A stretch of 34,951 bases of DNA from a virus (IMGVR_UViG_2740892423_000023:1-34951), one strand, 5' to 3'. Numbered from the stretch's first letter, positions 2,471 to 34,951 are shown. Notes: generated from the sequence alone by a model not told the origin. Numbers and translations: made by a program.

Positions 2471-3550
2471 TCACCCCTCACGTGGAAAAGGCTGAATATC
2501 AATATTTCCGGGGCGCAGCCATTCCCACGTTGACGCGTTAATAATGGCTTTTACGTTGCCTGCTGGCGTAATGATTCGCCGGTCACTGATACCGGAAATT
2601 AATGAAATCTGGGTTTCCAGTTGTGAAATAATTAATTCCTGCCCCGGCTCCAGCCGGTTCATAAAATCCGTGATAACGTCAGTTATCTGCGGTTTTATCT
2701 GTTCAACGGTCAGGCCGCTGGTTTTTACCCGGACAACGAAATCAACGGCTTTTTTCGTCGGGGCCAGCACCATCGTGTCCTTCGCTGTCACCGGGCGGAC
2801 TTCCTCAATATGAGCCAGCACGGCATTAATCAGTTCCTGCGAGGGAAGGTCATTGGCTGACGTAATGGCCACATCAACCGTCCCCAGTCCACGACGCAAT
2901 GGCTCCACATATGCCGAGGTAACACCATCCACTTCCAGCGCCCAGCGTTTGTAATCATATTTGTTACCGCCAGCGGGCGGCCTGCGCAGAATATCCAGAT
3001 AACGCGCCAGCAGGTCGGCGTCGCTTTCCCTGTCCGTTCCGCCGGTCAGGGATTTAATCGTCACCGTGCTGTTGATGCCTTCCGGCGGACTGACGAGCGT
3101 TGCCGTCTGCGTCGCGGATGCATTCGTCTGTGCACCCTTGGTGGTGCTTTTTACCGTCACCTCCGCGCTGCCTTCATCACCGATGGTGCAGTCTGCGGTG
3201 GTGGCCACGCTGACACCTTCACCACGAATTTCCGCACCGGCTGGCAGCGTCTTACCGGGTGTGCCGGTAATCACTGCCGGACCGGATGAGGCTGTTGCTT
3301 TTTTACGAAAAACATTGCGCGTGCGGCAGTGCAGCTCCAGATATTCAGGGTCTGCCGTGTCAGGAAACACCTGACGGAGGATCCACCCCTGATGCATATA
3401 AAGCCCGTCCGCCACGCCGGATACGGCATTTGCACGAATGCGGTAATCGCTGTCAGCGCCGGTATCTATGGTTTCTCCCGGCAGGGCGTTAGCGATATCA
3501 CGTAGCTGGCGTTCTGTGTTTTCAGCAACGCCCGGAACAGGAAACGGCAT
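2471..3550 (-). CDS. Baseplate J-like protein (Mu gp47-like)
   Basis: 359-aa ORF; position and size match Baseplate_J family; overlaps neighbours by start/stop coupling. Confidence 0.75.
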   Translation of the reverse strand: MPFPVPGVAENTERQLRDIANALPGETIDTGADSDYRIRANAVSGVADGLYMHQGWILRQVFPDTADPEYLELHCRTRNVFRKKATASSGPAVITGTPGKTLPAGAEIRGEGVSVATTADCTIGDEGSAEVTVKSTTKGAQTNASATQTATLVSPPEGINSTVTIKSLTGGTDRESDADLLARYLDILRRPPAGGNKYDYKRWALEVDGVTSAYVEPLRRGLGTVDVAITSANDLPSQELINAVLAHIEEVRPVTAKDTMVLAPTKKAVDFVVRVKTSGLTVEQIKPQITDVITDFMNRLEPGQELIISQLETQISLISGISDRRIITPAGNVKAIINASTWEWLRPGNIDIQPFPREG

Positions 3551-24698: not shown

Positions 24699-24724
24699 CA
24701 GACCAAAACATATGTTTTGGTCTG
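24699..24724 (-). promoter_or_regulatory. 26-bp perfect palindrome upstream of the 92-aa gene
   Basis: CAGACCAAAACATATGTTTTGGTCTG; a second related inverted repeat CCAAAAC-N5-TTTTGG at 24681-24698 abuts the start codon. Confidence 0.55.
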
Positions 24725-30597: not shown

Positions 30598-30947
30598 TAT
30601 CTGAGTGCAAACGCAAGTCGTGGCTGATAACGGGGAAGACGGGCACACATACGCGCAAGACGATAAGCCCGACGAAACCCCTGTAAAGTCTGCTCAAAAG
30701 GAATAATCATTAATCGCGCACAGCATTCATCAACATCCCAGTCGTCGCTGGTATTTCCGGTTCCATTGATTTCCCGTTCACGGGAATACAAATCAATGCG
30801 CAGTTCACCCGGCACGAAGCAATCAACAAACGGAATAATTTCACCAGGGGTTCCATTAGAATAAATACAACCATTACGACCAATACTCTGTAGTGCCCTT
30901 ATTTCATTTCTGAGAGCCATTTTTTCCATGCGCAAAACTCCAGTCAC
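30597..30947 (-). CDS. Hypothetical early protein (116 aa; start GTG 30947 or ATG 30929)
   Basis: First gene after MuB (kil-region position); GTGA overlap with MuB stop. Confidence 0.45.
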   Translation of the reverse strand: MTGVLRMEKMALRNEIRALQSIGRNGCIYSNGTPGEIIPFVDCFVPGELRIDLYSREREINGTGNTSDDWDVDECCARLMIIPFEQTLQGFRRAYRLARMCARLPRYQPRLAFALR

Positions 30948-31837
30948 TTAATTAACATTTCGGAGAATTTCTCAATAGCTTTTACGCTCACTGGCACTTT
31001 GGTGACATCACTCATCCGGTACACGCCACGCACCAGTTTGAACAGGCGACGGGCGTTACCACGCGAATATGTATAAAGCGCCTCGCCGATTTCTGGCGTT
31101 TCCGCTTCCGGCATCAATTCTGTGGCTATTGGCGTAAAATCCTCTGGCGACAACGTATTCCCCATATCAAGCGCCACACCCACACGACTGTATAACTGAG
31201 CGAACTCCCCGCGATTACCCTTAAGATTAGTCACAAGGCGCGGCATACCCGCCAGAACAATCCCGATACCCGCCTTGTCATGCAGACGGCGCAGAACCTC
31301 CAGTGCACGGTAGGGGAGTAGCTCGGCTTCATCCACCATCAGCAGACGACCGGAATCACGCAGTTCGCGCACACAGACATCAATCAGTTCGTGAATACTG
31401 CCGCGAACCTTTACCCCCAGCTGGCGACACAGCTCCCCGAGTAGCGCCCTGGCTGTATAGCCGGTGTCAGCCTCAATCAGTATCGCATCCCGGTTTCTGG
31501 CGGCGTATTCACTCAGAATCATTGTTTTTCCAAGACCAGCCTCGCCATGCAGCACGCAGATTTCACAATACGCATGAGCATAAGAGAGCATCTCCAGCCC
31601 TTTATCTGCCATTTCCGTGGCGACAAATTTCGCTTTAACACGACGATTACTTTGCTTCTCCAGCTCACGACTGACAAAGGAAGATATACGCTCTTCAACG
31701 TCAGTAACGTCACCTACATATTTACCCTGTAAGTACTGGTTGATAACGGCGCTACTACGACCAATTGCACGACCAACGTGGGTCTGCGTATAGCCGCAAC
31801 GGGCCATTACGTCATTTAATTGCGTAATTAAACTCAT
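30944..31837 (-). CDS. Transposition ATPase, MuB-like (AAA+)
   Basis: 297-aa ORF; Walker A GEAGLGKT, Walker B LLMVDEAE; directly downstream of transposase. Confidence 0.9.
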   Translation of the reverse strand: MSLITQLNDVMARCGYTQTHVGRAIGRSSAVINQYLQGKYVGDVTDVEERISSFVSRELEKQSNRRVKAKFVATEMADKGLEMLSYAHAYCEICVLHGEAGLGKTMILSEYAARNRDAILIEADTGYTARALLGELCRQLGVKVRGSIHELIDVCVRELRDSGRLLMVDEAELLPYRALEVLRRLHDKAGIGIVLAGMPRLVTNLKGNRGEFAQLYSRVGVALDMGNTLSPEDFTPIATELMPEAETPEIGEALYTYSRGNARRLFKLVRGVYRMSDVTKVPVSVKAIEKFSEMLIK

Positions 31838-31854: not shown

Positions 31855-33930
31855 TTAACGGTTGTTTGTGCCGTCTTTCTTTAAATTGCGGTCACGCTCG
31901 GATGCAAAGAAATAAAGTTCTTCTTTTTTCTTTTCCTCCTTACGCTCCAGACCAAATCCAAAATTAAAGTCAGGTTTCTGCGTAATAGCCGGGGTAAGCT
32001 CGCGTTTAGCCTCTTCGATTTTCTGCGTGGCCCGTGCAATGCGGCCTCTGACGCGTTTCTCCAGTTTTTGTTCGATAACTGGTTTAGCGAAGGCATCAAC
32101 CTTGTTACCGTTCCAGATGGCATCGCAGATATAAGAGCCATCAGCCCGCCGGACAATGACACTGTTTGCGTCATGAATATCGTAACTGACCCTGACTTCA
32201 TTCCCGTGCTCTGCGGCCAGCTCATACGAGTAATAAATATTGTTGAATAACTGAATTTCCCCGCGAAATGTTTTGCGCGTCACCTCCGGCCTGAACATTT
32301 CATGCAGCTCTTCCGGCGACAGGAAATCAATTTCAACATTCTGCTCTTTTATCAGTTTCCGGCGATACGCTGCCGGGCTGTAATATTCGCCATCCTCTTT
32401 GCGGGGAAGGCTGCTGTGTGGCCGGTTGTTATAGCGTCTGACCTCCAGCTCTATGGCGGCCATCAGTTGCTCAAAGGTGGGGATTTCATCCCTCGCCTTA
32501 ACCTGCCGTTTTGTCAGCTCTTTCCCTTTGTGGGTGGCCTTAATGGCTGACTGCATAATCCGTTGCTGCATCATTACGGTTTCCTTGTCTGCATCCCTTG
32601 CGCAGTACGTCTGGAAACTCAGAGCCACGTCTTTAGGTATTCCTTTGTTTGCCCGTTCAATCACCCCGCGCCCCTGCGGGTTACCTGGTATCCCCGTGTG
32701 ATGTTCTACACCCAGCCGGGGCAGAATCCCGGTAATATCGGCATCAAGCACCCGGTTTTTTTCACCGCCCCCGTTATCGGAGTAATAAATCAGCGGTATC
32801 CCGTGCTGCGCCATGCCGTAACGTAACGCATCAGCAACGGCTATCACGTTCTCCGACAGGGACAGTGACCAGCCCACAACAAAGCGTTGCCCAGCATCCA
32901 TAACCAGCGTCACTTCTGGCCGGAAAATATTGCCGGTCAGGGGGTTAAACGCGGTCATTTTCATACAGTGACCATCCCCGACCCATACCGCATTAACCGG
33001 TAATGATGTCCAGTCGCGCCGCACAAAGGGATTGAGCGAACGCCAGGCTGAACCGGTGGAGCGGAAACGCTCTTTAACAATCACCGGGACGCTGCTTAAC
33101 ACCCGTCTTACTGCGTGAACTGAAGGCAGTGCCGCCAGCATTCCCGCATCATTCGCGTGTTTTTCATGCCACCAGGCTGAAAACTCACGATACGCATATT
33201 CAACAGTCGGGCGCTTCCATGAGCGATAGAACATAAAGAAATCGCTCAACCACCAGACCTGCTCCCACGGTGTTCCCTTATGATGACCGGGAGCCAGTAA
33301 CGCCAGTAACTGATTGGCATCACCGCGCGCCATCAGCCAGGCGGAATACCATTCCTGTAAACTCCCTGTACTGACGCCAGTTCGCTTACCCTGTCGGGCA
33401 TTGGCGGTATTACCTGCCACAATAACGCGCTCGGGCAAAGCCTCCTGGCGGATACCATCAACGATGTGTTTTATCGCTGCCGTCCTGGACATTCCTGCGT
33501 ATTCACGCAGTTTATGCACTTCGGTAGCCAGCAATATCCGCGCATCAGCGATGGCCTTTTGCTTGTCGGTCAGTGCCTGAACTTCGCGTAATGCCAGTTC
33601 CGGGCATTTGACCATCACCTCCAGCTCATCGCGGACGGTGACGTTTTTAGCTGCCTTCTGCTCAACCACTGCGGGCAGTTGCGCATCTTCCAGGACCTGA
33701 TGGGTCAGGCGTTGACGTAAAACCTTCTGAACATCTTTAGGTAAACTGGATATATGGTACTCATATATTTTCCCCTGAACTCCAGACTTCCTTCTTCTTG
33801 TCCAGTTCGCTCGTTTAGCTTTTTGAGTGATCCCCTGTACAGTTTTCGGTAGCCCTTGAAGCCCTGTTAGTTCATTCAACGTAAACCATTCAGGTTCGAA
33901 CTTGACTTCATAGTCGTTGTTCTTATTCAT
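31855..33930 (-). CDS. DDE transposase, MuA-like
   Basis: 691-aa ORF; N-terminal winged-helix region (LTGLQGLPKTVQGITQKAKRANW) related to the repressor N-terminus; overlaps ner stop. Confidence 0.9.
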   Translation of the reverse strand: MNKNNDYEVKFEPEWFTLNELTGLQGLPKTVQGITQKAKRANWTRRRKSGVQGKIYEYHISSLPKDVQKVLRQRLTHQVLEDAQLPAVVEQKAAKNVTVRDELEVMVKCPELALREVQALTDKQKAIADARILLATEVHKLREYAGMSRTAAIKHIVDGIRQEALPERVIVAGNTANARQGKRTGVSTGSLQEWYSAWLMARGDANQLLALLAPGHHKGTPWEQVWWLSDFFMFYRSWKRPTVEYAYREFSAWWHEKHANDAGMLAALPSVHAVRRVLSSVPVIVKERFRSTGSAWRSLNPFVRRDWTSLPVNAVWVGDGHCMKMTAFNPLTGNIFRPEVTLVMDAGQRFVVGWSLSLSENVIAVADALRYGMAQHGIPLIYYSDNGGGEKNRVLDADITGILPRLGVEHHTGIPGNPQGRGVIERANKGIPKDVALSFQTYCARDADKETVMMQQRIMQSAIKATHKGKELTKRQVKARDEIPTFEQLMAAIELEVRRYNNRPHSSLPRKEDGEYYSPAAYRRKLIKEQNVEIDFLSPEELHEMFRPEVTRKTFRGEIQLFNNIYYSYELAAEHGNEVRVSYDIHDANSVIVRRADGSYICDAIWNGNKVDAFAKPVIEQKLEKRVRGRIARATQKIEEAKRELTPAITQKPDFNFGFGLERKEEKKKEELYFFASERDRNLKKDGTNNR

Positions 33931-34126
33931 AACGTGATGGCCAAATTTCTTCTGGCTTTTTACCGATCACACTAGCGACAATCATTTCTGCTTTGGGCCA
34001 TTTTGTACGTAGAACATTACCCAAACTTCTTGATTTCATTCCATGCTCTCGTGAAAGCCGACTAAAGTTTGTTCCTTTCTTTTCTAGTTCCGCCTTGATA
34101 TCTGACGGATGCATATCTTGTCTCAC
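33923..34126 (-). CDS. ner: Ner-like DNA-binding protein
   Basis: 67 aa; ...NVLRTKWPKAEMIVASVIGKKPEEIWPSRY matches the Ner/Nlp signature; GTG start with GAGGT RBS. Confidence 0.8.
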   Translation of the reverse strand: MRQDMHPSDIKAELEKKGTNFSRLSREHGMKSRSLGNVLRTKWPKAEMIVASVIGKKPEEIWPSRYE

Positions 34127-34372
34127 GTCTCTACCTCTTCACATAAATCAACAGATATGAGATCTTGAGTGATTACTCGCATGTGTACGCGATTGAGTTA
34201 CTCACCTGCGTGAAGAATACTAGATTTAAACAATGTTTAAGTCAACATGTTTAAATCTGTGTTTAAAACATTTTGGCGACCGTGTGACTTATCGTTTTGT
34301 TTTTGAGGTAATTTTTGTGTTTTAAACAAAAGCTCTATTTCATGCTCTTTTGTTTAAATCTAAGGGGGTAGA
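34127..34372. promoter_or_regulatory. Divergent immunity control region (operators and promoters for repressor and ner-A-B)
   Basis: AT-rich 246-bp gap with repeated TGTTTAA units and near-palindromes GAGTGATTACTC (34167-34178) and GAGTTACTC (34194-34202). Confidence 0.6.
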
Positions 34373-34951
34373 ATGAAACAAGAATGGGTTGCCGCAAAAG
34401 ACCTGGTAGGGCTTCATGGTTTACCTGCCACAATTCAGGGAATTCACCAAAAAGCCAAAAGGGGCGGATGGCGCAAAGAGAAAAGAATTACACCTGGTGT
34501 GAAGGGACATCAGGTATACTTCTACTTACCTGATTTGCCTGAAAAAATACGCTGCTCCTTGGTGTCGAAAGACGGAGAAACTCCAGTGAGGAATGATTTA
34601 AACAAAGGGTTGATATCAATACTGGAAATGACATCCGCAGAAGATCAATTCAATCTTTTTCGCGCTTTGTGTGAATTTGGCATCAAAGGAGTCCTAGAAC
34701 ACCTACAACAACCCACCAGGCAAGCTACGCAGGCCGACAGCGACCAGGACGAACAGGAGAATGCCATCAGAAGCCTAAACATCAGGGAATCGCTTAAAGA
34801 CGTTATATGTATGGCTCTAGATGGTAATGAAGAAACCGACAAAGAGATTTTGCGACGCATCGAATCTCGTGCACGGGCTGGGTCGCCAGGTGGTCAGACC
34901 GTTGCCACGCCGGAGCAAGAAACGAAGCCTGTAAGCAAAAAATCAGCATGA
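34373..34951 (+). CDS. Mu c-like repressor
   Basis: 192-aa ORF with AAGGGGG RBS; N-terminus LVGLHGLPATIQGIHQKAKRGGW parallels the transposase N-terminal DNA-binding domain; divergent from ner. Confidence 0.75.
   Translation: MKQEWVAAKDLVGLHGLPATIQGIHQKAKRGGWRKEKRITPGVKGHQVYFYLPDLPEKIRCSLVSKDGETPVRNDLNKGLISILEMTSAEDQFNLFRALCEFGIKGVLEHLQQPTRQATQADSDQDEQENAIRSLNIRESLKDVICMALDGNEETDKEILRRIESRARAGSPGGQTVATPEQETKPVSKKSA

What the first reader, a model, noticed from the sequence alone, without database searches (positions are those of the whole stretch)
34127..34372. Immunity-region operator repeats between ner and repressor
The divergent control region carries at least five TGTTTAA-type units (for example atgtttaag, atgtttaaa, gtgtttaaa, tgttttaaac, ttgtttaaat) plus two near-palindromes GAGTGATTACTC and GAGTTACTC close to the ner start. 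The repressor and transposase share an N-terminal DNA-binding domain, so as in Mu these sites likely serve both as repressor operators and as a transposition enhancer. The specific repeat sequence defines this phage's immunity specificity.
Basis: partly seen in the sequence, partly recalled or inferred. Interest (0 to 1): 0.35.

Follow-up and report, generated by a model that had tools for sequence, protein, structure and literature searches.

The report
Mu-like prophage repressor operator repeats
The TGTTTAA repeats between the repressor and ner genes of this Mu-like E. coli prophage are real and conserved, and are most likely the repressor's operators and probably also the transposition enhancer; this is an ordinary feature of Mu-type phages, here with a different recognition sequence from Mu's.

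Summary
Observation confirmed. Six exact TGTTTAA cores lie within 132 bp (34226-34357), against about 3.8 expected in the whole 35-kb window. They fit an 11-nt motif, TGTTTAARWCW. A seventh full-strength copy sits inside the repressor gene. The sites form two clusters. Cluster A (four sites) covers the -10, spacer, -35 and upstream region of the only conserved sigma-70-like promoter facing ner-A-B. Cluster B (two sites) lies just before the repressor's ribosome-binding site.

A Salmonella prophage whose repressor is only 59% identical keeps all six sites in the same order and orientation, with spacing within 1 bp. The spacer between its clusters has diverged (49% identity).

Sibling E. coli prophages share 90-98% identical transposase bodies and about 80% identical repressor C-termini. 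They carry unrelated repressor DNA-binding domains and have none of these repeats, apart from one stray copy in L012.

The repressor and transposase N-termini are paralogous Mu-type winged-helix domains (40% identity, the same as in Mu). The transposase N-domain is swapped together with the operators, which supports a dual operator/enhancer role; binding itself is inferred.

No IHF consensus lies between the clusters.

Verdict: a new member of a known kind.

The parts
34221..34234 (-). S1, repressor-site candidate ATTGTTTAAATCTA. It overlaps the -10 and spacer of the early promoter and forms a palindrome with S2.
   Evidence: PWM 20.0. Kept in L001, L002 and L005.
34232..34245 (+). S2, AATGTTTAAGTCAA. 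It contains the -35 hexamer of the early promoter on the opposite strand.
   Evidence: 17.8. The TGTTTAAGTCAA core and 3' flank are identical in Salmonella L005, which has ATTGTTTAAGTCAA.
34246..34259 (+). S3, CATGTTTAAATCTG, immediately upstream of the -35.
   Evidence: 17.1. L005 has TATTTAA at the same position.
34258..34271 (+). S4, TGTGTTTAAAACAT (near-palindromic TGTTT-A-AAACA).
   Evidence: 17.2. Kept in L005 (19.6).
34272..34316 (.). T-rich spacer between cluster A and cluster B. Its sequence varies freely but its length is kept.
   Evidence: 49% identity to L005, against 89% for cluster A. Most substitutions among the E. coli copies fall here. No IHF consensus with <=1 mismatch.
34317..34330 (-). 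S5, TTTGTTTAAAACAC. It forms a 12-nt perfect inverted repeat with S6 (CTTTTGTTTAAA).
   Evidence: I2; 18.2. Kept in L005.
34349..34362 (+). S6, TTTGTTTAAATCTA, directly before the repressor Shine-Dalgarno sequence (AAGGGGG).
   Evidence: 20.3. Kept in L005 (19.8) and in L007 (CTGTTTAAATCA, 15.8).
34593..34606 (-). S7, TTTGTTTAAATCAT, a full-strength site inside the repressor gene (codons 74-78). It overlaps an exact IHF consensus by 4 nt. Status uncertain.
   Evidence: PWM 19.0 and not in the training set; 0.002 expected per window. Kept only in the 96-99% relatives; absent in L005 and L007.
34603..34615 (-). Exact IHF consensus TATCAACCCTTTG next to S7.
   Evidence: only two exact matches in the window. 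Kept in L001 and L002, absent in L005 and L007.
34217..34245 (-). Candidate early promoter (Pe-like) for ner-A-B: -35 TTGACT (34245-34240), 17-nt spacer, -10 TAGTAT (34222-34217).
   Evidence: The only 9/12 sigma-70 match in the region. Same position in L002 and in L005, which has TTGACT-17-TAGCAT.
34171..34188 (.). Ner box 1 (degenerate): GATTACTCGCATGTGTAC.
   Evidence: Aligns with L005 GTTACACGCACGTGTAAC. 14-nt direct repeat D2, 25 nt apart.
34197..34214 (.). Ner box 2 (degenerate): GTTACTCACCTGCGTGAA.
   Evidence: Aligns with L005 GTTACTCGATCGTGTAAC. Pairs of 16-18-bp palindromes 26 bp apart lie next to ner in three other control regions, L005, L003/L004 and L012; in L013 the scan reported one such palindrome next to ner (3407-3422) and the second box is read by eye.
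34373..34951 (+). Repressor gene (192 aa). Residues 4-70 form a Mu-type winged-helix DNA-binding domain. From residue ~80-83 on is a C-terminal domain shared with repressors that carry other DNA-binding domains.
33923..34126 (-). ner (67 aa, HTH_35). Its end overlaps the transposase start by 8 nt.
33712..33891 (-). Part of the transposase gene encoding the I-alpha-like N-terminal domain (residues 14-73), paralogous to the repressor domain.
   Evidence: 100% identical in L001 and L002 while the rest of the protein is 92-93% identical; replaced in heteroimmune siblings.
33730..34676 (.). Immunity cassette exchanged as a unit: transposase residues 1-67, ner, all the sites above, and repressor residues 1-~101. 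GC is lower than in the flanks.
   Evidence: blastn against L004: 96.5% identity up to 33729, no similarity 33730-34676, 94.5% from 34677. GC 0.31-0.46 against 0.51-0.58 in the transposase body.

Best explanation
This is the immunity (operator) region of a transposable Mu-like prophage of E. coli. It is arranged as in Mu: repressor one way, ner-transposase-B the other way, about 0.9-1.0 kb from the left end.

**Repressor sites.** The 11-nt asymmetric motif TGTTTAARWCW is the recognition site of the repressor's Mu-type winged-helix domain. Four copies (S1-S4, 34221-34271) blanket the -10, spacer, -35 and upstream region of the early promoter, so bound repressor shuts off ner, transposase and B. 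Two copies (S5 and S6, 34317-34362, an inverted pair) sit just upstream of the repressor's own ribosome-binding site and probably autoregulate it. The variable T-rich spacer, whose length is conserved, lets the two clusters cooperate.

**Enhancer.** The transposase carries a paralogous N-terminal domain; 10 of 14 residues in the presumed recognition helix are the same (TIQGIHQKAKRGGW against TVQGITQKAKRANW). The same sites, or sites interleaved with them, therefore probably also act as the transposition enhancer. Repressor would then block both transcription and transpososome assembly, as in Mu.

**Ner boxes.** The two degenerate 18-bp boxes at 34171-34214 lie between the promoter and ner. They are the Ner (Cro-like) operators, not repressor sites.

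**Shown:** the repeats, their statistics, their conservation, the promoter overlap, the domain homology and the cassette exchange.

**Inferred:** which protein binds which site, the enhancer function, and autoregulation.
For: - **Repeats beyond chance**.
- **Promoter overlap.** Overlap with the one conserved promoter-like site facing ner.
- **Purifying pattern.** Among E. coli copies, cores vary at 0/42 columns against 31/204 elsewhere. Against Salmonella, cores are 90% identical against 64% elsewhere.
- **Spacing.** Start-to-start spacings are 11/14/12/59/32 in the window and 11/14/12/58/31 in Salmonella L005, although the repressors are 59% identical and the spacer is 49% identical.
- **Recognition helix.** The stretch TIQGIHQKAKR is invariant in the three repressors (100%, 59% and 51% identity to the window's) that keep the motif.
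- **Heteroimmune siblings.** Siblings with PF07022- or HTH_3-type repressor N-domains lack the motif and carry other repeats.
- **Domain identity.** Rep and Tnp N-domains hit MuA I-alpha (1TNS, E 1e-7 and 4e-9) and Mu Rep (1G4D). Their paralogy equals that in Mu.
- **Co-variation of the transposase N-domain.** Identity to the window of residues 1-67 against the rest of the protein (cassette boundaries):
  - L003: 45% / 90%
  - L004: 45% / 98%
  - L012: 35% / 95%
  - L013: 33% / 97%
  - L001 and L002: 100% / 92-93%
- **Geometry.** The left end lies 300 nt past the repressor stop, so the sites lie 0.89-1.03 kb from it. Mu's control region is at 930-1098, and its enhancer is about 1 kb from the L end, overlapping O1-O3 (PMC3145075).
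- **Ner boxes.** Paired 16-18-bp palindromes 26 bp apart lie next to ner in three other control regions, L005, L003/L004 and L012. In L013 the scan reported one such palindrome next to ner and the second box is read by eye. Their sequences track the Ner proteins, which are 89% and 45% identical to the window's.
Against: - No binding data of any kind.
- No IHF consensus between the two clusters, unlike Mu.
- The repressor's own promoter could not be located. No + strand sigma-70-like site is conserved between the window, L002 and L005, so autoregulation at S5/S6 is a guess.
- Co-exchange of the transposase N-domain with the operators could partly reflect physical adjacency rather than function.
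- In siblings with non-homologous repressors the transposase N-domain also co-varies, so shared recognition by the two proteins is not the only way to couple them.
- The comparative set is small: one clade of near-identical copies, one Salmonella relative and one truncated contig. No relatives turned up in the species-representative genomes.
- The Ner boxes in this window are degenerate; box 2 matches 12/18 of the consensus read off the two Salmonella boxes (sequences).
Confidence: 0.72

Rival explanations
1. The TGTTTAA sites are repressor operators only. The transposase N-domain recognises different sequences, in this region or elsewhere, so the repeats are not the enhancer.
For: The two domains are only 40% identical. 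In sibling prophages the transposase N-domain co-varies with the cassette although the repressor has an unrelated fold, which shows that coupling does not require shared sites. No IHF site lies between the clusters as it does in the Mu enhancer.
Against: The presumed recognition helix is 10/14 identical between the two proteins, more than the 7/14 I count for Mu Rep and MuA from the alignments. Mu is the case where shared binding is established (PMC3145075). No other repeat family in the cassette is left unassigned.
Confidence: 0.2
2. The TGTTTAA repeats are bound by Ner (the Cro-like protein) or by a host factor, and the repressor binds the 34166-34216 boxes instead.
For: No binding data exist. 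Both proteins are encoded next to the region.
Against: Ner proteins of one family (PF13693) occur in all immunity types. They go with similar TTAnC...GnTAA palindromes 26 bp apart in three of the types and with one such palindrome in L013, whereas TGTTTAA occurs only with the Mu-type repressor domain. L007 keeps the site directly before its repressor gene. Repressor must silence the early promoter, and only the TGTTTAA sites cover its -35 and -10.
Confidence: 0.05
3. The repeats are a by-product of AT-rich intergenic composition (UP-element-like or H-NS-bound DNA) without sequence-specific recognition.
For: The region is 31-34% GC, and the motif is AT-rich.
Against: Even with a 34% GC background, 0.29 hits of score >=17 are expected in 70 kb of scanning, against 7 observed. 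The cores are invariant while the equally AT-rich spacer diverges freely. Heteroimmune intergenic regions of the same GC content lack the motif.
Confidence: 0.03

Closest known systems
Bacteriophage Mu operator / enhancer region (O1-O3, IAS/E element) between c and ner
   Same: - Gene order: repressor, then control region, then ner-A-B, about 1 kb from the left end.
- The repressor and the transposase I-alpha are paralogous Mu-type winged-helix domains, about 40% identical.
- Multiple ~11-nt asymmetric sites, in mixed orientation, fall into clusters that overlap the early promoter.
- Ner-type sites lie between the promoter and ner.
   Different: - The recognition sequence is unrelated. TGTTTAARWCW is found here, against CTTTTYNRWAW in Mu. 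The Mu consensus is quoted from memory; it has 3 exact matches in Mu's control region and none here, and TGTTTAA is absent from Mu's control region.
- The intergenic region is 246 nt against 169 nt in Mu.
- There are two clusters (4 + 2 sites) rather than three operators.
- No IHF consensus lies between the clusters.
- The proteins are distant: repressor DNA-binding domain 29% identical, transposase 22%, Ner 45%.
Phage D108 control region (heteroimmune relative of Mu; Mizuuchi, Weisberg and Mizuuchi 1986, cited in PMC3820752)
   Same: An immunity cassette consisting of the repressor N-terminus, operators, ner and the transposase N-terminus differs between otherwise closely related phages. Repressor and transposase N-termini resemble each other within each phage. 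This is the pattern seen here between the window and L003, L004, L012 and L013.
   Different: Here the alternative cassettes in sibling prophages carry repressor DNA-binding domains of a different fold (PF07022 or HTH_3), fused to the same C-terminal domain and without homology to their transposase. The D108 paper itself was not held in the library, so its details come from memory and from its title.
Mu-like prophages of E. coli such as the UMNF18 and STEC316 elements (L004, L003)
   Same: B, the transposase body and the repressor C-terminal domain are 90-98% (DNA or protein) or about 80% identical. They are the same phage lineage, inserted at different chromosomal sites.
   Different: A different immunity cassette: CI-type repressor N-domain, 168-nt control region with GAAAG/CTTTC-type repeats and GTTATCC-N4-GGATAAC boxes, and no TGTTTAA sites. 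The window's cassette is rare: full-length matches in 3 of 5,426 complete E. coli genomes.

Membership tests
Mu-type immunity/operator-enhancer region | Divergent repressor and ner-transposase-B genes, with the control region about 1 kb from the left phage end | tested here: met
   ORFs and Pfam. The left end, taken from two independent insertion junctions, lies 300 nt past the repressor stop. Mu layout for comparison.
Mu-type immunity/operator-enhancer region | Repressor with a Mu-type winged-helix DNA-binding domain (PF02316; fold of 1G4D/1QPM) | tested here: met
   PF02316 E=4e-8, above the gathering score. Sequence hits to 1TNS (1.3e-7) and 1G4D (7.7e-6). The fold itself was not modelled.
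Mu-type immunity/operator-enhancer region | Transposase N-terminal (I-alpha) domain paralogous to the repressor domain | tested here: met
   40% over 60 aa, E=2e-12. Tnp residues 15-73 hit 1TNS at 3.7e-9. Same degree of paralogy as Mu Rep/MuA.
Mu-type immunity/operator-enhancer region | Clusters of short asymmetric repeats overlapping the early promoter | tested here: met
   Six sites in two clusters. S1-S3 cover the -10, spacer and -35 of the conserved promoter-like site.
Mu-type immunity/operator-enhancer region | IHF site between the site clusters | tested here: not met
   No WATCAANNNNTTR match with <=1 mismatch in 34127-34372, and none in the L005 control region. The only nearby exact match is inside the repressor gene (34603-34615).
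Mu-type immunity/operator-enhancer region | Repressor binds the repeats and represses the early promoter | not testable with these tools
   Comparative support only.
Mu-type immunity/operator-enhancer region | Transposase N-domain binds the same region, and the region stimulates transposition in cis | not testable with these tools
   Indirect support only: co-exchange of the I-alpha-coding segment with the operators.
Mu immunity specificity (homoimmune with Mu) | Mu operator consensus CTTTTYNRWAW in the control region | tested here: not met
   0 matches here against 3 in Mu. TGTTTAA is absent from Mu's control region. Predicted heteroimmune to Mu.
Ner/Cro-like operators of Mu-like phages | Paired symmetric boxes between the early promoter and ner that co-vary with the Ner protein | tested here: inconclusive
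   Clear pairs in L005, L003/L004 and L012 (16-18-bp palindromes, 26-27 bp apart). In L013 only one such palindrome next to ner was reported by the scan (3407-3422); the second box is read by eye. In the window the same positions hold degenerate copies (box 1 lacks one base, box 2 matches 12/18).

The most novel reading that the evidence does not exclude
In this prophage lineage the unit of immunity exchange is a fixed cassette: transposase I-alpha domain, ner, operators and repressor DNA-binding domain. The transposase I-alpha domain co-varies with the cassette even in siblings whose repressor domain has an unrelated fold (CI/HTH_3 type). Coupling of enhancer and operator would then be selected in its own right and would not depend on repressor-transposase paralogy. 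The window's cassette would be the rare Mu-style solution grafted onto a common repressor C-terminal domain. A distal seventh site plus an IHF consensus inside the repressor gene would act as a looping partner, replacing the missing inter-cluster IHF site.
Probability: 0.3. Interest if true: 0.45.

Novelty: new member of a known kind. Interest (0 to 1): 0.25.

Why it matters
The finding gives a concrete, testable operator motif (TGTTTAARWCW) and a site map for an uncharacterised immunity type of E. coli and Salmonella Mu-like prophages. This type is rare: 3 of 5,426 complete E. coli genomes, and no deposited phage. The lineage also offers a natural domain-swap series: one transposase body and one repressor C-terminal domain combined with at least four different cassettes. 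That series could be used to ask how Mu-type transposases and repressors share or partition an enhancer/operator. It does not change the known picture of Mu regulation.

Tried and rejected
- **GAGT...ACTC palindromes as the functional unit.** Rejected. The GAGT arms are AAAC and GGGG in the Salmonella relative and are mutated in E423, while GTTAC...GTAAC boxes are conserved.
- **IHF site in the control region.** None found with <=1 mismatch.
- **Repressor promoter.** Relaxed sigma-70 scans gave TTGAGT-17-AATACT at 34193-34221 in the E. coli copies, but it is not kept in Salmonella. No candidate is conserved. A TTGTTT island at 34297-34302 is invariant in the four aligned sequences, but with TTTTAA as its -10 it is a poor promoter.
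- **More distant relatives.**
  - Two scans of species-representative genomes found none.
  - IMG/VR and JGI metagenomes gave only ~99% copies.
  - A search with the 79-aa domain alone returned nothing because of the word index.
  - No DNA match in deposited phages. The best phage repressor hit was 40% over 63 aa, and the transposase is <=47% identical to isolated phages.
- **Known RNA family.** None; the one hit scored 16 bits against a threshold of 199.
- **Mu operator consensus.** Absent here.
- **Literature.** Reading the D108, van Rijn and Harshey papers failed because they are not held.

Full report
**What is there**

The last 5 kb of the window is the early region of a Mu-like transposable prophage, read in reverse:
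- a B-like AAA ATPase (30944-31837, -)
- a 691-aa transposase with PF02316 and the Mu-transposase C-terminal domain (31855-33930, -)
- a 67-aa Ner/HTH_35 protein (33923-34126, -)
- a 246-nt intergenic region (34127-34372)
- a 192-aa repressor whose residues 10-72 match PF02316 (34373-34951, +)

The window ends at the repressor stop codon. Near-identical copies lie in three complete E. coli chromosomes at different sites: next to yigF, and inside alx. This is expected for a transposing phage. Comparing two junctions puts the phage left end (...CCCCACA) 300 nt past the repressor stop.

**The observation**

TGTTTAA occurs 10 times in the window, against 3.8 +/- 1.7 expected. Six of these lie in 132 bp. 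Longer matches show that the unit is about 11-14 nt. S1, S3 and S6 share TGTTTAAATCT exactly, S4 and S5 share TGTTTAAAACA, and S2 is TGTTTAAGTCA. The consensus is TGTTTAARWCW.

A 14-nt PWM from the six sites has 0.02 hits >=17 expected per window, or 0.29 if the whole window were as AT-rich as the intergenic region. The six sites score 17-20 (12.8-18.4 leave-one-out), and nothing in the other 34 kb exceeds 12.1.

A seventh site outside the training set scores 19.0. It lies at 34593-34606 (-), inside the repressor gene.

**Anatomy**

- Cluster A is S1(-), S2(+), S3(+), S4(+) at 34221-34271.
- Cluster B is S5(-), S6(+) at 34317-34362, a perfect 12-nt inverted pair (CTTTTGTTTAAA) ending at the repressor's Shine-Dalgarno sequence.
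- Between them is a 45-nt T-rich spacer.
- The only sigma-70-like site of 9/12 in the region faces ner: -35 TTGACT (34245-34240), 17 nt, -10 TAGTAT (34222-34217).
- S2 contains that -35, S1 covers the spacer and reaches the -10, and S3 and S4 lie just upstream.
- The promoter is at the same position in E423 and in the Salmonella relative (TTGACT-17-TAGCAT).

**Comparative tests**

1. Three E. coli copies (96-98.6% identical over 33900-34951). All 42 core positions are invariant, while 31 of the other 204 intergenic columns vary (p=0.004). The changes pile up in the spacer.

2. A Salmonella enterica prophage (L005), with repressor 59% and Ner 89% identical.
   - It keeps all six sites in the same order and orientation.
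   - Start-to-start spacings are 11/14/12/58/31, against 11/14/12/59/32 in the window.
   - The spacer is 49% identical.
   - Cores are 90% identical against 64% elsewhere (p=4e-4).

3. A short contig (L007), with repressor 51% identical. It keeps CTGTTTAAATCA in the S6 position.

4. The stretch TIQGIHQKAKR is invariant in these repressors. By alignment to MuA I-alpha and Mu Rep it is the second helix of the helix-turn-helix; that assignment is from my memory of the Clubb laboratory structures.

5. Most homologues of the repressor match only its C-terminal 57%. They carry PF07022 (CI-type) or HTH_3 N-domains. Their prophages (L003, L004, L012, L013) have 138-182-nt control regions with other repeats: GAAAG/CTTTC, AAAGTACGA, AATCCG. 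They have no TGTTTAA-type site, apart from one stray copy in L012.

**Repressor-transposase relationship and the enhancer question**

The repressor's residues 4-63 and the transposase's residues 14-71 are 40% identical (E=2e-12). That is the same as Mu Rep against MuA (40.6%). Both hit the solved MuA enhancer-binding domain 1TNS and the Mu repressor domain 1G4D. In the presumed recognition helix, 10 of 14 residues agree.

blastn against the UMNF18 prophage (L004) shows 96.5% identity up to 33729 (transposase codon 67). There is no similarity from 33730 to 34676, and then 94.5% from 34677 (repressor codon ~101).

At the protein level, identity to the window's transposase is as follows:

| Locus | Residues 1-67 | Rest of protein |
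|---|---|---|
| L003, L004, L012, L013 | 33-45% | 90-98% |
| L001, L002 | 100% | 92-93% |

The I-alpha-coding segment therefore always travels with the operators. The cassette also has lower GC than its flanks.

In Mu the enhancer overlaps O1-O3, lies about 1 kb from the left end, and consists of two clusters of MuA sites (PMC3145075). Here the two clusters lie 0.89-1.03 kb from the left end.

I take this as good indirect support for a dual operator/enhancer role. It is an inference, because adjacency alone could produce some co-exchange. In the siblings the transposase domain co-varies with the cassette although their repressors are not homologous to it.

**The near-palindromes**

GAGTGATTACTC and GAGTTACTC exist, but their GAGT arms are not conserved. 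The conserved reading is two 18-bp boxes 26 bp apart. In Salmonella these are GTTACACGCACGTGTAAC and GTTACTCGATCGTGTAAC. In the window they are degenerate: GATTACTCGCATGTGTAC (34171-34188) and GTTACTCACCTGCGTGAA (34197-34214).

Three other control regions have such a pair next to ner. L003 has GTTATCCGTGCGGATAAC and TTATCCCTTCGGATA. L012 has TTATCGAATCCGATAA and TTATCGGATGTGATAA. In L013 the scan reported only one such palindrome next to ner (TTATCTGATGTGATAA, 3407-3422); a second box 26 bp upstream is read by eye from the sequence.

The Ner proteins belong to one family, with 89% and 45% identity to the window's. The boxes lie at and just downstream of the predicted early start site. I assign them to Ner, the Cro-like regulator, not to the repressor.

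**What does not fit, or is unknown**

- No IHF consensus lies between the clusters.
- An exact IHF consensus (34603-34615) abuts S7 inside the repressor gene. Both are kept only in the near-identical copies and are absent in L005 and L007. Their role is open.
- The repressor's promoter was not found.
- The set of informative relatives is small.
- No Rfam family matches the region.

**Comparison with what is known, and verdict**

In architecture and inferred mechanism this is a Mu/D108-type immunity region, with a different recognition sequence and distant proteins. The repressor domain is 29% identical to Mu's, the transposase 22% and Ner 45%. Mu's operator consensus is absent here.

The immunity type is not represented among deposited phages. 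It is rare in E. coli: full-length matches in 3 of 5,426 complete genomes.

It is a new member of a known kind, and the interest is low to moderate. The most useful by-product is the natural series of cassette swaps in one prophage lineage.

Noticed in passing
window 34593-34615: A seventh full-strength repressor-type site (TTTGTTTAAATCAT, - strand) lies inside the repressor gene, in the linker after the DNA-binding domain. It overlaps by 4 nt an exact IHF consensus (TATCAACCCTTTG). Both lie inside the swapped cassette. They are kept in the 96-99% relatives but absent in the Salmonella relative and in L007.
   Followed up: partly
window 33730-34676, compared with L003, L004, L012, L013: The repressor is modular. 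Its C-terminal ~110 residues are 52-78% identical to those of repressors in sibling prophages, which carry CI-type (PF07022) or HTH_3 N-domains instead of the Mu-type domain. The transposase's first ~55-67 residues differ in each immunity type while the rest stays 90-98% identical. In those siblings repressor and transposase share no N-terminal homology.
   Followed up: partly
L001 4340-4352 and L002 4339-4351 (300 nt beyond the window end): The prophage left end can be read from two different insertion junctions: ...GATCACTACCCCACA followed by host DNA. Read inward it starts with TG, as in Mu. The copies are inserted at different chromosomal sites (next to yigF, inside alx, next to agaF), which indicates active transposition.
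   Followed up: partly
L012 3424-3437: A single good TGTTTAAATC site (PWM 16.0) sits in the control region of a heteroimmune sibling whose own repeats are AAAGTACGA-type. It may be chance or a remnant.
   Followed up: no
window 24699-24724: A perfect 26-bp palindrome, CAGACCAAAACATATGTTTTGGTCTG, with a further GACCAAAACA copy about 20 nt upstream, in an AT-rich stretch. It could be a regulatory site or a terminator stem.
   Followed up: no
window 34350-34381: S6 and a degenerate copy that overlaps the repressor start codon (TAGAATGAAACAA) form an 85% inverted repeat flanking the Shine-Dalgarno sequence. In RNA it could form a hairpin with the ribosome-binding site in the loop. It is not conserved in L007 and is weak in L005.
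   Followed up: no
window 34140-34165: The ner leader (CACATAAATCAACAGATATGAGATC) is almost invariant between the E. coli and Salmonella phages (85% for 34127-34165), although the neighbouring Ner-box region is only 61% identical. It contains an IHF-like AATCAACAGATAT with two mismatches.
   Followed up: no
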